A DNA stretch of 5,153 nt from Escherichia coli (GTDB lineage Bacteria > Pseudomonadota > Gammaproteobacteria > Enterobacterales > Enterobacteriaceae), in assembly GCF_013315695.1 (NCBI RefSeq), contig NZ_CP054358.1; one strand, 5' to 3'. The notes under the pieces are model-generated. The model was not told where the DNA came from. It saw only the letters and a list, made by a program, of their open reading frames with translations, and made no database searches. The position numbers and the translations under genes were made by a program. How positions within the stretch are numbered: the stretch's first letter is position 1; each line of letters opens with the position of its first letter. This document shows positions 101 to 5,153 of the stretch, in pieces.

Positions 101-442
101 ATGAGTTTAAGATACTACATAAAAAATATTTTGTTTGGCCTATACTGCGCACTTATATATATATACCTTATAACAAAAAACAACGAAGGGTATTATTTCC
201 TAGCGTCAGATAAGATGCTATACGCAATAGTGATAAGCACTATTCTATGCCCATATTCAAAATATGCTATTGAACACATATTTTTTAAGTTCATAAAGAA
301 AGATTTTTTCAGAAAAAGAAAAAACCTAAATAATGCCCCCGTGGCAAAATTAAACCTATTTATGCTATACAATCTACTTTGTTTGGTCCTAGCAATCCCA
401 TTTGGATTGCTAGGACTGTTTATATCAATAAAGAATAATTAA
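101..442 (+). CDS. imm: Colicin E1-type immunity protein (inner-membrane protein, 113 aa)
   Basis: The 113-aa product [34 protein letters not shown]... is very hydrophobic with about three predicted transmembrane segments, and matches the ColE1 immunity protein as remembered. It is antisense to and convergent with cea; the stop codons overlap (cea ends at 439, imm at 442). GAGG at 90..93 lies 7 nt before the ATG. The gene is markedly AT-rich compared with its neighbours. Confidence 0.93.
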
Positions 443-2004
443 ATACCCAACACCTCATTTATAGTATTAAGTTTATTCTTATCAATAAAGGCACATAGAA
501 TGCCTGTAACAATAGCAATCCCCCAGATACCTAATGTAGTTCCAGCAAGCACACTAAAAAGTAAAACAACAACATAACTAACTCCAGCATCTACAGCTTT
601 CTTCTCTAATGTAAGAAATAGCGGCTTCCAGTCACCTGTATCCTTAATTTTTAGGATATCAGATACCACATCATATCCAAAAGAAACATGTCCCGTAATC
701 TTCAAGTACTTGGCAAACTGATCTAAATGCTTAGCCCAGTCTTCATACTTAACCGCCTCCAGTGCATTGAAAATTGCATCACGGTCTGCTTTGCTGAATT
801 TCTTATTTAATACATCCTTGTATTTCTCAAAAGCAGCTAGAGCTTCATTCACATTGCTGATTTTCTTACCTTTAGATTTATCAGCAAGTTCCTGTGCCAT
901 TTTTGAATATTTTTCACCATATTTTTCAGATAGCGTTTGATAAAAGCTAACTGTTGCATCCACAGCATCCTTAATCTGCGAGTTCAGGAGATTAGTCTGT
1001 GCTGTTTTCAAATTATCTTCAGCATCATGAATACGTGAAACTGCTGTACTTCGCTTATTATTAGCCTGAGAAATAGCCTCTTGGATTCCATTTATCTCAG
1101 AGCTAATCTGGTTAAGACGCGTTTCTGATGCTGTTACCTGCTTTTGTTTTTCCTCCATCTCATCACCAGCTCTCGCCCGTAGTCTGGTGGCCTCAAAAAA
1201 AGGACGACTCTGAAGCGGATCATTCGCCCTAGGAGATAAAAGTTTAACCCTTTCATCCAGTTCTTTATATTTAGCAGATGCCTGATCCAACTCATTTCGT
1301 TTTCCGGACAGCGTATTCGTTTCTGCATCACGGGCATGAATACTGGAGCTTAAACGGGTATTGAGCGTATTAATCTCTTCATCCACTTTCGCCAGCTCAG
1401 ATTGTGCAGCAGCAAGATTTTTTTGTGCCACCTCCACAGCCCGGGCCTCTTCACTCAATGCTGCCAGGCGTTTCTCTTCATCCTCAGCCAGTTTCAATTG
1501 GCGTTCTGTTTCAGCCTGCTCCTTCTCTATCTCTTTACGTCGTTGTTCTGCTTCCTGAAAAGCCTTTTCCGCAGCTTCCGCTTCTTTACGGGCTTTTTCT
1601 TCTGCTTTTGCAAGGCGCAACCGCTCTGCTTCTGCCTGCATCGCTGCATTATTGGCATGAGCCAGGTCAATAACCTCCGGATGAGTGGAATTATGGCGAA
1701 GCGCCTCATTCACAATATCCTTCAGATGTTGAGTCAGCGCATCCCGGTTTGCTTTCGCTTTAGCCTGTGCTTCTGCGGCAGCTTTTGCTCGGGCAGCCTG
1801 TTCTGCCTGCGTTTTCTTCAATTGAGCAGTAGACCATTTAGCTGTGGCATGAATGGCTGCAGAACTTTCACTTTTGCTACCTCCAGTTCCACCACCACCG
1901 CCAGAGCCACTCCCGTCTGGATTACCATTCAAAAGAGTAATGATTACCTGCCCCTTATCATCATAAGGAACACCATCTTTATAGTACGCTACAGCTGTTT
2001 CCAT
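439..2004 (-). CDS. cea: Pore-forming colicin, colicin E1 type (521 aa): glycine-rich N-terminal translocation region, central coiled-coil receptor-binding region, C-terminal channel-forming domain
   Basis: Product begins [27 protein letters not shown]...[18 protein letters not shown] and ends ...[47 protein letters not shown] (hydrophobic hairpin of the channel domain). It is collinear with colicin E1 (522 aa) from memory, with scattered substitutions. AGAGGA precedes the ATG. The promoter with LexA boxes is immediately upstream. Confidence 0.96.
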
Positions 2005-2051: not shown

Positions 2052-2082
2052 CTGTATATATAATCACTGGTTTTATATACAG
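2052..2082 (-). promoter_or_regulatory. Twin overlapping LexA (SOS) boxes of the colicin operon
   Basis: Read on the - strand: CTGTATATAAAACCAG (complement of 2067..2082) and GTGATTATATATACAG (complement of 2052..2067). Both are close to the CTGT-N8-ACAG consensus. They lie between the -10 hexamer and the cea start, as in ColE1. Confidence 0.8.
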
Positions 2083-2086
2083 TTTA

Positions 2087-2115
2087 AAATTACGCCGCTG
2101 CATTTTCCCTGTCAA
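2087..2115 (-). promoter_or_regulatory. sigma70 promoter of the cea-kil operon (-35 TTGACA at 2115..2110, 17-bp spacer, -10 TAATTT at 2092..2087)
   Basis: Reverse complement of 2086..2116 reads TTGACAGGGAAAATGCAGCGGCGTAATTTT. This is a perfect -35 with a 17-bp spacer, and the predicted start site falls inside the LexA boxes. Confidence 0.75.
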
Positions 2116-4904: not shown

Positions 4905-5012
4905 ACAGTATTTGGTATCTGCGCTCTGCTGAAGCCAGTTACCTCGGTTAAGCAGTTCCCCAACTGACTTAACCTTCGATCAAACCGCCTCCCCAGGCGG
5001 TTTTTTCGTTTA
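4905..5012 (+). ncRNA. RNA I (antisense copy-number control RNA, about 108 nt)
   Basis: Starts ACAGTATTTGGTATCTGCGCTCTGCTGAAGCCAGTTACC, identical to the 5-prime end and stem-loop 1 of pMB1 RNA I. Ends in a stem (CCGCC 4985..4989 / GGCGG 4996..5000) followed by TTTTTT. -35 TTGAAG (4869..4874) and -10 TACACT (4893..4898) are upstream. Confidence 0.85.
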
Positions 5013-5020
5013 CAGGCAGC

Positions 5021-5049
5021 AGATTACGCGCAGAAAAAAAGGATCTCAA
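5021..5049 (-). promoter_or_regulatory. RNA II promoter (-35 TTGAGA at 5049..5044, 17-bp spacer, -10 TAATCT at 5026..5021)
   Basis: The complement of GGATCTCAAG...AGATTACGCG gives TTGAGA and TAATCT, the same elements as the pBR322 RNA II promoter. Confidence 0.7.
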
Positions 5050-5060
5050 GAAGATCCTTT
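5034..5060 (-). terminator. Hairpin plus short U-run just downstream of the kil stop; candidate terminator of the cea-kil transcript, overlapping the RNA II -35 region
   Basis: Arms AAAGGATCT (5038..5046) and AGATCCTTT (5052..5060) with a 5-nt loop. On the - strand the hairpin is followed by TTTT (complement of 5034..5037). The kil stop is at 5071..5069. Confidence 0.4.
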
Positions 5061-5068
5061 GATCTTTT

Positions 5069-5153
5069 CTACTGAACAGAGATCCCCGTCAATTTAGAAG
5101 AAGATGATGGAGCCACAGTCCCTCCCTGAACATCACGTATATAGTTAGCCTGA
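5069..5153 (-). CDS. kil: Colicin release (lysis) lipoprotein Kil, 3-prime portion (residues about 18-45 plus stop at 5071..5069); joins 1..53 if the molecule is circular
   Basis: Reverse complement of 5153..5069, in the frame set by bases 2..1, reads (C)QANYIRDVQGGTVAPSSSSKLTGISVQ then TAG. This is a near-exact continuation of the ColE1-type lysis protein, giving a 45-aa lipoprotein overall. Neither the ORF track nor a linear gene finder can see it because it is split by the window boundary. Confidence 0.8.
   Translation of the reverse strand, partial: QANYIRDVQGGTVAPSSSSKLTGISVQ

What the first reader, a model, noticed from the sequence alone, without database searches (positions are those of the whole stretch)
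5021..5071. Colicin/lysis operon runs head-to-tail into the RNA II promoter; a shared hairpin is both terminator candidate and part of the RNA II -35 region
cea-kil and RNA II are both on the - strand. The kil stop (5071..5069) is only about 20 bp from the RNA II -35 hexamer (5049..5044), and the only terminator-like structure (5038..5060 hairpin followed by a 4-U run) overlaps that hexamer. SOS-induced transcription of the colicin operon could read through or occlude the replication primer promoter, coupling colicin induction to copy-number control. The terminator is weak by sequence (short U-tract).
Basis: inference. Interest (0 to 1): 0.35.

Follow-up and report, generated by a model that had tools for sequence, protein, structure and literature searches.

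The report
Colicin-operon terminator overlapping ColE1 primer promoter
The hairpin just after the colicin lysis gene is real and appears to serve both as that operon's end-of-transcription signal and as part of the promoter for the plasmid's replication primer, but this is the standard layout of ColE1-type colicin plasmids, and whether it links colicin induction to copy number was not tested here.

Summary
The window is a complete 5153-bp circular ColE1-type plasmid. Its colicin is 87% identical to colicin E1 and its origin 92% identical to ColE1. On the - strand, kil ends at TAG 5071-5069. Eight nt later comes a 10-bp hairpin (5060-5038, -10.1 kcal/mol) followed by a run of seven T (5040-5034). 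The RNA II -35 hexamer TTGAGA (5049-5044) lies in the loop and 3' arm. The junction differs from reference ColE1 by one base, so the layout is already known.

Comparison with other plasmids supports the dual-use reading. Large plasmids that carry a colicin operon but no RNA II keep the homologous hairpin and T-run; there the stem is perfect (11-12 bp) and the TTG of the -35 is lost. ColE1-type replicons without a lysis gene keep TTGAGATCC nearly unchanged, while the 5' arm and the T-run often decay. The two arms also hold the conserved pair of Dam GATC sites of the ColE1 primer promoter.

The functional claim, that SOS-induced transcription reads through or occludes the primer promoter and so changes copy number, is plausible from the geometry but remains inference. 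Novelty: already known. Interest is low to moderate.

The parts
2067..2115 (-). SOS-regulated cea promoter: -35 TTGACA at 2115-2110 and a LexA box CTGTATATAAAACCAG at 2082-2067, with a second, overlapping, weaker box downstream.
   Evidence: The LexA box has one mismatch to CTGT-N8-ACAG. The layout matches the ColE1 cea promoter as I recall it.
439..2004 (-). cea, a colicin E1-type pore-forming colicin of 521 aa.
   Evidence: ORF. It is 87% identical over its full length to the colicin of reference ColE1. RefSeq annotates it as a colicin-like pore-forming protein.
101..442 (+). imm, the colicin E1 immunity gene, convergent with cea and lying between cea and kil.
384..418 (.). Strong inverted repeat just downstream of the cea stop and inside the 3' end of imm. 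It has a 13-bp stem (-23.3 kcal/mol) and no U-tract on the - strand. It is the candidate proximal attenuator (T1) of the operon and also the imm terminator on the + strand.
   Evidence: The T1 role is inferred from the general T1/T2 scheme of colicin operons (PMC2896534; PMC5157957).
1..53 (-). kil (lysis lipoprotein), 5' part. The start ATG is at 53-51, and the gene continues across the circular junction to 5153.
5069..5153 (-). kil, 3' part, ending in the TAG stop at 5071-5069.
   Evidence: and the tblastn result.
5038..5060 (-). Hairpin AAAGGAUCUU-CUU-GAGAUCCUUU. It is the distal (T2) terminator candidate of cea-kil, and its loop and 3' arm contain the RNA II -35 hexamer.
   Evidence: Conservation is shown. 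Homologues that lack RNA II are shown.
5034..5040 (-). Run of seven T (the terminator U-tract). It lies inside the -35/-10 spacer of the RNA II promoter.
   Evidence: A T-run of 5 or more is present in 8 of 10 lysis-linked junctions and in 23 of 72 others.
5044..5049 (-). RNA II (primer) promoter -35 hexamer, TTGAGA.
   Evidence: Identical to ColE1. T, T, G and G are invariant across 82 replicon variants.
5021..5026 (-). RNA II promoter -10 hexamer, TAATCT, 17 nt after the -35. The RNA II start is at about G5013.
   Evidence: The 3' end of RNA I fixes the RNA II 5' region.
5042..5064 (.). Three Dam GATC sites at 5064-5061, 5056-5053 and 5045-5042. The last two form the hairpin cores, lie 11 bp apart and flank the -35.
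   Evidence: Sequence. Both sites are present in 60 of 78 distinct replicon variants. The role in hemimethylation and SeqA 'eclipsing' of ColE1-like plasmids comes from bioRxiv 10.1101/2025.02.19.639193, which cites Patnaik et al. 1990.
4907..5009 (+). RNA I antisense regulator, with its own strong terminator at 4982-5003 (-16.8 kcal/mol).

Best explanation
The 23-nt inverted repeat at 5060-5038 is one DNA segment that appears to serve two jobs. As RNA made from the cea-kil operon, it folds into a hairpin followed by a U-run and ends the operon; it is the 'T2' terminator after the lysis gene. Release would occur at about 5040-5034, inside the spacer of the next promoter. As DNA, its loop and 3' arm are the -35 hexamer and adjacent bases of the RNA II primer promoter, and its two arms carry the conserved pair of Dam GATC sites that flank the -35. 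The window carries a compromise form. The stem is weaker than in relatives that have no promoter duty, because the loop must spell TTGAGA. The following are shown here: the anatomy, its near-identity with ColE1, its conservation, and the separate decay of the promoter and terminator features when one function is absent. The following are inferred: that termination actually happens here, how efficient it is, and that polymerases arriving from kil transiently occlude the RNA II promoter. A polymerase must transcribe across the -35 to make the 3' arm, and at the release point it would probably cover the -10.
For: (1) Anatomy. (2) The junction from the kil stop to the RNA II start differs from reference ColE1 (NC_001371) by one base. 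The same lysis-stop, hairpin, RNA II order is found next to colicin K, cloacin-type, colicin S4 and other operons. The stop codon lies 1-11 nt before GGATC in all 10 distinct lysis-linked junctions. (3) Terminator role: in large plasmids with a DNase-colicin, immunity and lysis operon and no RNA II downstream, the homologous element persists (L112-L122). The stem becomes a perfect 11-12 bp (-12.6 to -13.5 kcal/mol) and six T are kept in four of the five distinct variants (one has a T-to-G change). The 3-nt loop varies (AGA, AGT, AAG) and the TTG of the -35 is lost. Homology to ColE1 ends at CTGCGC, before the -10. (4) Promoter role: among 82 distinct ColE1-type upstream regions, T, T, G and G of TTGAGA are invariant, while the 5' arm and T-run decay in many lineages without a lysis gene. 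Only 31 of 82 have 5 or more T, and about 31 of 82 have no more than the 4-bp GATC core paired. (5) ColE2-type plasmids, which have a different replicon, end the lysis gene with an unrelated, stronger terminator (13 bp plus 9 T, -15.4 kcal/mol). A terminator after the lysis gene is therefore the rule. (6) The T1/T2 scheme of colicin operons is described in PMC2896534 and PMC5157957.
Against: There is no transcript 3'-end data. The stem is modest (3 G-C pairs, -10.1 kcal/mol) and the pattern alone is within chance for this window. Covariation across replicons is weak: 75.6% of cells paired against 73.8% in shuffles, reached by 4 of 500 shuffles, a level that unconstrained alignments can reach. 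G-U mismatches outnumber A-C only 32 to 18. Two lysis-linked junctions (colicin S4, L007; Raoultella, L069) have long stems but no U-run. Several ColE1 replicons with co-directional upstream genes lack the U-run or the 5' arm (L014, L022, L025, L026). The large-plasmid homologues may represent a single ancestral transfer, so they count as few independent events.
Confidence: 0.7

Rival explanations
1. Coupling device. The terminator is leaky by design. After SOS induction a substantial share of cea-kil transcripts reads through into RNA II, giving 5'-extended primer transcripts, and/or occludes the RNA II promoter. Colicin induction would then measurably change plasmid copy number.
For: The stem is weaker than in promoter-free homologues (-10.1 against -12.6 to -13.5 kcal/mol) and weaker than the ColE2-type T2 (-15.4 kcal/mol). 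The kil stop codon is only 8 nt from the stem, so a terminating ribosome could shorten the stem (inference). The release point lies between the -35 and -10, so occlusion is geometrically unavoidable. In MFE folds, read-through RNA keeps only 30 of 47 RNA II pairs. From memory, not verified here: reports of ColE1 DNA increase after mitomycin C (DeWitt and Helinski 1965) and of upstream-initiated primer transcripts in the CloDF13 cop-1(Ts) mutant (van Putten et al. 1986).
Against: No data on read-through or copy number were found. Seven consecutive U after a conserved stem is a competent terminator form. Induced cells lyse, so selection on copy number after induction may be weak. The extra pairing of read-through RNA with RNA II stem-loop III is not conserved across replicons.
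Confidence: 0.2
2. DNA-level element only. The inverted repeat exists because two Dam GATC sites 11 bp apart, plus A/T-rich flanks, are selected around the -35 for promoter strength and SeqA-mediated post-replication eclipse. On this view the resemblance to a terminator is incidental.
For: The GATC core is itself palindromic, and both sites are present in 60 of 78 variants. The element is kept in replicons with divergent or no upstream genes. Covariation is weak. The literature describes a conserved Dam site pair and eclipsing.
Against: It does not explain why the stem and T-run persist, and the stem improves, downstream of lysis genes where there is no RNA II and the -35 TTG is lost. It also does not explain the 12-13 bp extended stems in L007 and L069.
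Confidence: 0.1
3. Bidirectional or antisense insulator, or mRNA stabiliser. The hairpin mainly stops + strand transcription (RNA I read-through) from entering kil as antisense, or it protects the 3' end of kil mRNA from exonucleases rather than terminating transcription.
For: The repeat is also scored on the + strand, with the tail GATCTTTTCT (-10.3 kcal/mol). An A-run 5' of the stem pairs with the U-run in the MFE fold. A 3'-protective role was suggested for the ColE7 T2 hairpin (PMC2896534).
Against: RNA I has its own strong terminator 35 nt upstream on the + strand (-16.8 kcal/mol). The + strand tail is interrupted and is poorly conserved in other replicons. A stabiliser role presupposes that the 3' end forms here, which makes it compatible with the best explanation rather than a true rival.
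Confidence: 0.08

Closest known systems
Reference plasmid ColE1 (NC_001371): junction between kil and the RNA II promoter
   Same: Same gene order and strand, same stop codon context, and the same hairpin, T7 run, -35 TTGAGA, 17-nt spacer and -10 TAATCT. There is one base difference between the stop codon and the RNA II start. The ori region is 92% identical and the colicin 87% identical.
   Different: This plasmid is 5153 bp rather than 6646 bp and lacks most mob genes. It has a third GATC (5064-5061) where ColE1 reads GATT. Its RNA I and RNA II loop sequences differ.
T2 (distal) terminators of colicin operons, for example ColE2 and ColE7
   Same: A hairpin plus U-run placed just after the lysis gene of an SOS-controlled colicin, (immunity), lysis operon (PMC2896534; PMC5157957; L109 and L110).
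   Different: In ColE2-type replicons T2 is an unrelated and stronger hairpin (13 bp, 9 T, -15.4 kcal/mol) that sits about 25 nt after the stop codon and does not overlap any replication promoter.
Homologous hairpin after the lysis gene on large colicin-bearing plasmids (L112, typed IncFII, and L113-L122)
   Same: Homologous sequence from the lysis gene 3' end through AAAAGGATC...GATCCTTTTTTCTGCGC.
   Different: There is no RNA II or RNA I downstream. The stem is a perfect 11-12 bp, the loop varies, and TTGAGA is replaced by GAGAGA, GTGAGA or AGGAGA.
Dam/SeqA-sensitive GATC pair of the ColE1/pBR322 primer promoter
   Same: Two GATC sites flank the RNA II -35, here at 5056-5053 and 5045-5042. 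They are conserved in ColE1-like plasmids and implicated in hemimethylation 'eclipsing' (citing Patnaik et al. 1990).
   Different: That literature treats them as DNA methylation sites. Their role as the two arms of a terminator hairpin for the upstream operon is a separate, RNA-level reading.
Promoter occlusion and transcriptional interference between tandem promoters (general concept)
   Same: An upstream, inducible, strong promoter (cea) fires into a downstream, constitutive, weaker promoter (RNA II) on the same strand.
   Different: Here a terminator is embedded in the downstream promoter itself. No interference measurement exists for this pair in what I could search.

Membership tests
Intrinsic (Rho-independent) terminator | Stable stem-loop containing G-C pairs in the transcript | tested here: met
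   10 bp, 3 G-C pairs, 3-nt loop, -10.1 kcal/mol, z = -3.0. It is at the weak end compared with the RNA I terminator (-16.8 kcal/mol) and the ColE2-type T2 (-15.4 kcal/mol).
Intrinsic (Rho-independent) terminator | U-rich tract immediately 3' of the stem | tested here: met
   Seven consecutive T at 5040-5034. Four remain unpaired if the AAA:UUU pairs form.
Intrinsic (Rho-independent) terminator | Transcript 3' ends map to the U-tract | not testable with these tools
   This needs Term-seq, 3' RACE or in vitro transcription.
Colicin operon distal terminator (T2) | Lies directly downstream of, and co-directional with, the lysis gene of a LexA-controlled colicin operon | tested here: met
   The kil stop is 8 nt before the stem. 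A LexA box and the cea promoter are at 2115-2067. The operon order is shown.
Colicin operon distal terminator (T2) | The element stays with the lysis gene independently of the replicon | tested here: met
   The homologous hairpin and T-run follow lysis genes on large plasmids that lack RNA II.
ColE1-type RNA II primer promoter | -35 TTGAGA, 17-nt spacer and -10 TAATCT at the position homologous to ColE1 | tested here: met
   Identical hexamers and spacing to NC_001371. The -35 is conserved in 82 variants. The generic sigma-70 scan misses the promoter because the -10 matches TATAAT at only 3 of 6 positions.
ColE1-type RNA II primer promoter | Overlapping antisense RNA I whose 3' end abuts the RNA II start | tested here: met
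   Rfam RF00106, 87.4 bits against a gathering score of 47, at 4907-5009 on the + strand.
ColE1-type RNA II primer promoter | Mapped transcription start, and primer processing at ori | not testable with these tools
   The start at about 5013 is inferred by homology only.
Dam/SeqA-regulated origin-proximal GATC pair | Two GATC sites about one helical turn apart at the primer promoter, conserved among ColE1-like plasmids | tested here: met
   Sites at 5056-5053 and 5045-5042, 11 bp apart. Both are present in 60 of 78 distinct variants.
Dam/SeqA-regulated origin-proximal GATC pair | Hemimethylation-dependent SeqA binding or replication delay | not testable with these tools
   Known only from the literature.

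The most novel reading that the evidence does not exclude
The terminator embedded in the primer promoter is tuned to be leaky. In SOS-induced cells, read-through from the derepressed colicin promoter would yield 5'-extended primer transcripts and/or promoter occlusion. Either would shift plasmid copy number in the minority of cells committed to colicin release, for example by amplifying colicin gene dosage before lysis. Replication control would then be wired to the SOS response through a 23-nt dual-use element shared by over a thousand natural colicin plasmids.
Probability: 0.2. Interest if true: 0.5.

Novelty: already known. Interest (0 to 1): 0.22.

Why it matters
ColE1-type origins are the basis of most cloning vectors and of thousands of natural small plasmids. 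The comparison suggests where the left boundary of this origin comes from. The inverted repeat around the RNA II -35 looks like the colicin operon's terminator fused to the primer promoter and to a Dam site pair. If read-through or occlusion turned out to be substantial, colicin induction and plasmid copy number would be mechanically linked, and vector designs that place strong promoters upstream of the origin would be affected by the same element. As it stands, the finding re-describes the canonical ColE1 layout. The comparative dissociation of the two functions is a useful but modest addition.

Tried and rejected
(1) Covariation test of the hairpin over 82 distinct ColE1-type upstream regions. 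The signal was weak: 75.6% of cells paired against 73.8% in shuffles, reached by 4 of 500 shuffles. I do not use it as proof of an RNA structure.

(2) Strand test using G-U against A-C mismatches. The result was 32 against 18. This is too small, and it is confounded by the T-rich 3' side.

(3) The idea that hairpin plus U-run is a general insulator wherever a co-directional gene lies upstream. I rejected it. L014, L022, L025 and L026 have co-directional upstream genes but a poor U-run or no 5' arm.

(4) Complementarity between the promoter spacer/-10 (5034-5017) and RNA II stem-loop III, which would make read-through RNA self-inhibiting or resistant to RNA I. It is not conserved: median z = 0.11, and only 3 of 87 replicons fall below -2.

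(5) The first LexA-box search used the wrong spacing. It was corrected.

(6) Primary papers were not held in the library. These were Patnaik 1990 (PMC208666), Waleh and Johnson 1985 (PMC390921) and Cascales 2007 (PMC1847374). A search for van Putten 1986 found nothing, and Chan 1985 has no PMC id. Statements about those papers are from memory and are marked as such.

(7) The literature search on cruciforms gave nothing specific to this repeat.

Full report
**What the window is.** The 5153 bases are a complete circular plasmid. They match many 5153-bp E. coli and Shigella plasmids end to end at about 99.9% identity, for example NC_009346 from S. sonnei Ss046. The plasmid is of ColE1 type.
- RNA I is found by Rfam (RF00106, 87 bits, 4907-5009 +).
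- It encodes rop, exc1, exc2 and a short mobA/nikA-like protein.
- It carries a colicin operon on the - strand: cea at 2004-439, a convergent imm at 101-442 (+), and kil.
- The colicin is 87% identical to colicin E1 of reference ColE1, and the ori region is 92% identical.
- Upstream of cea there is a TTGACA -35 (2115-2110) and a LexA box CTGTATATAAAACCAG (2082-2067), so the operon is of the SOS-controlled type.

**Checking the observation.** Because the window is a permuted circle, kil crosses its ends. It starts at ATG 53-51, continues from 5153, and ends at the TAG stop 5071-5069. It encodes 45 aa with the lipobox LVGC and is annotated as a colicin release lysis protein in the identical RefSeq record.

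On the same strand, 8 nt after the stop, lies AAAGGATCTT-CTT-GAGATCCTTT (5060-5038). This gives 10 pairs including one U-G, 3 G-C pairs and a 3-nt loop. It is followed by TTTT, so there are seven consecutive T in all (5040-5034). Its free energy is -10.1 kcal/mol, z = -3.0.

TTGAGA (5049-5044), a 17-nt spacer and TAATCT (5026-5021) are identical to the corresponding ColE1 sequence. The position of RNA I puts the RNA II start at about 5013. The hairpin is the only terminator-like site between the kil stop and the RNA II start.

Two corrections apply. The U-run is not short; it is 7 long, and the weak point is the stem. The pattern by itself is not statistically unusual in this window: 9 terminator-like sites against 5.4 +/- 2.3 expected.

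**Is it special to this plasmid?** No. From the stop codon to the RNA II start, the junction differs from reference ColE1 (NC_001371) by one base, GATC here against GATT there. The same order (lysis gene stop, hairpin, RNA II promoter) occurs next to colicin K, cloacin-type, colicin S4 and other operons. The stop codon lies 1-11 nt from GGATC in all ten distinct lysis-linked junctions I collected. A tblastn search finds kil relatives in 1433 PLSDB plasmids.

**What the element does: comparative evidence.** I collected 82 distinct upstream regions of ColE1-type RNA II genes.
- 23 came from annotated plasmids chosen across the identity range.
- The rest came from a pattern scan of species-representative genomes. 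That scan was anchored on the -10 and the RNA II start, not on the hairpin.

Aligned on the -35 (A1), the findings were:
- T, T, G and G of TTGAGA are invariant.
- GATC-N7-GATC around the hexamer is present in 60 of 78 distinct rows.
- The outer stem (AAA/TTT) is common.
- About 31 of 82 pair no further than the GATC core.
- Only 31 of 82 have a T-run of 5 or more.
- Formal covariation is weak: 75.6% of cells paired against 73.8% in shuffles, reached by 4 of 500 shuffles. The excess of G-U over A-C mismatches is small, 32 against 18.

Within ColE1 replicons, then, the conserved core is explained mainly at the DNA level, by the promoter and the Dam sites. A recent preprint reports that the pair of origin-proximal Dam sites in ColE1-like plasmids mediates hemimethylation and SeqA 'eclipsing'. 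It cites the 1990 work on GATC sequences in the primer promoter.

**The reverse case.** This is the informative comparison. ColE2-type colicin plasmids have a different replicon. They end the lysis gene with an unrelated and stronger terminator: 13 bp plus nine T, -15.4 kcal/mol. A terminator after the lysis gene is therefore the rule, as the T1/T2 scheme in the literature states (PMC2896534; PMC5157957).

Large plasmids that carry a DNase-colicin, immunity and lysis operon have no RNA I or RNA II nearby. These are L112, which is typed IncFII, and ten further contigs of 50-190 kb (L113-L122). The lysis protein concerned is listed in 5208 blocks of the collection. In all of them the lysis gene is followed by the homologue of the window's element: CAGTA(A/G)-AAAAAATAAAAGGATCTC-NNN-GAGATCCTTTTTTCTGCGC. 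After that point homology to ColE1 stops, just before the -10.

In these copies the features separate cleanly:
- The stem is a perfect 11-12 bp (-12.6 to -13.5 kcal/mol).
- The run of six T is kept in four of the five distinct variants (L120 and L122 have a T-to-G change).
- The 3-nt loop differs between variants (AGA, AGT, AAG).
- The TTG of the -35 is gone.

Where there is no primer promoter, the hairpin and U-run are maintained and the -35 is not. Where there is no lysis gene, the -35 is maintained and the hairpin's 5' arm and U-run often are not. This double dissociation is the best evidence available here that the window's element serves both functions. The window's form, with an inner U-A and a U-G pair and the loop CUU, is the compromise that keeps TTGAGA readable. 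One caveat applies: the large-plasmid copies are closely related and may reflect few independent events.

**Mechanism and its uncertain part.**
- Shown: the anatomy, near-identity with ColE1, conservation, and dissociation of the two feature sets.
- Inferred: polymerases coming from kil release at 5040-5034.

That release point lies between the -35 and -10 of the RNA II promoter. Every polymerase that reaches the end of kil must transcribe across the -35, and at the release point it would probably cover the -10. Some transient occlusion of the primer promoter therefore follows from the geometry. Whether it matters depends on the flux from the cea promoter past the strong hairpin downstream of cea. 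That hairpin (384-418) has a 13-bp stem, -23.3 kcal/mol, and no U-run on the - strand.

The stop codon is only 8 nt from the stem, so a terminating ribosome could shorten the stem. This is inference.

Read-through RNA would contain the whole of RNA II with a 5' extension. In MFE folds it keeps 30 of 47 RNA II pairs, because the promoter spacer/-10 (5034-5017) is complementary to stem-loop III. That complementarity is confined to ColE1 and this lineage and is not conserved, so I give it little weight.

I found no measurement of read-through, occlusion or SOS-dependent copy number for ColE1 in the searchable literature. Older reports that I recall could not be checked. These are ColE1 DNA increase after mitomycin C, and upstream-initiated primer transcripts in a CloDF13 cop mutant.

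**Verdict.** The 'shared hairpin' reading is supported by comparison. The coupling hypothesis is untested. The arrangement is the canonical ColE1 layout, so novelty is 'already known' and interest is low to moderate.

Noticed in passing
window 5017-5034 (-) and 4918-4931 (+): The RNA II promoter spacer/-10 reads TCTGCGC-GTAA-TCTGCTG. This is a near copy of RNA I nt 12-25 (TCTGCGCTCTGCTG), so it is complementary to RNA II stem-loop III (inverted repeats I4 and I5). A read-through transcript would carry a cis 'RNA I-like' segment.
   Followed up: yes
window 384-418: A 13-bp perfect inverted repeat (-23.3 kcal/mol) lies inside the 3' end of imm and just downstream of the cea stop. It has a T-rich tail only on the + strand. 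It probably terminates imm and only attenuates cea-to-kil transcription (the T1-type site).
   Followed up: partly
L111 about 575-625 (CP088437, IncK2/Z plasmid), and L009 (TEM-1 upstream of the same hairpin): A Tn3-family terminal inverted repeat (GGGGGCTGAAGTCCAATGGAACGAAAACGTACGTTAGTG) replaces the last codons of a lysis gene. In L009 a Tn3 with blaTEM-1 sits just upstream of the hairpin, as I recall it does in pBR322. The A/T-rich end of the lysis gene looks like a recurrent Tn3-family insertion point.
   Followed up: no
loci L027, L029, L031, L072, L085, L088 and others: ColE1-type or p15A-type RNA II promoter regions turn up on short contigs in assemblies labelled Streptomyces, Cutibacterium, Streptococcus, Solirubrobacter, Hymenobacter and others. 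Vector or enterobacterial plasmid contamination of those assemblies is the likely cause.
   Followed up: no
window 439-2004, and the records listed: Some GenBank records of this same plasmid call the colicin 'colicin-10', yet it is 87% identical over its full length to colicin E1. Some records also truncate the immunity gene annotation (228 nt against 342 nt).
   Followed up: partly
L003 784-942, L004 637-780, L009 581-739 and others: RefSeq annotates small ORFs antisense to RNA II, just downstream of the RNA I region, as 'replication initiation protein' in several ColE1-type plasmids. ColE1 replication needs no plasmid-encoded initiator, so this looks like an annotation artefact.
   Followed up: no
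L006 440-489 (CP067975, Klebsiella cloacin-type plasmid): The T-run is 5 instead of 7. This shortens the -35/-10 spacer of the RNA II promoter to 15 nt, an unusual spacing for a working sigma-70 promoter.
   Followed up: no
window 5042-5084: Four GATC sites fall within 43 bp: 5084-5081, 5064-5061, 5056-5053 and 5045-5042. Reference ColE1 lacks the second one (GATT).
   Followed up: partly
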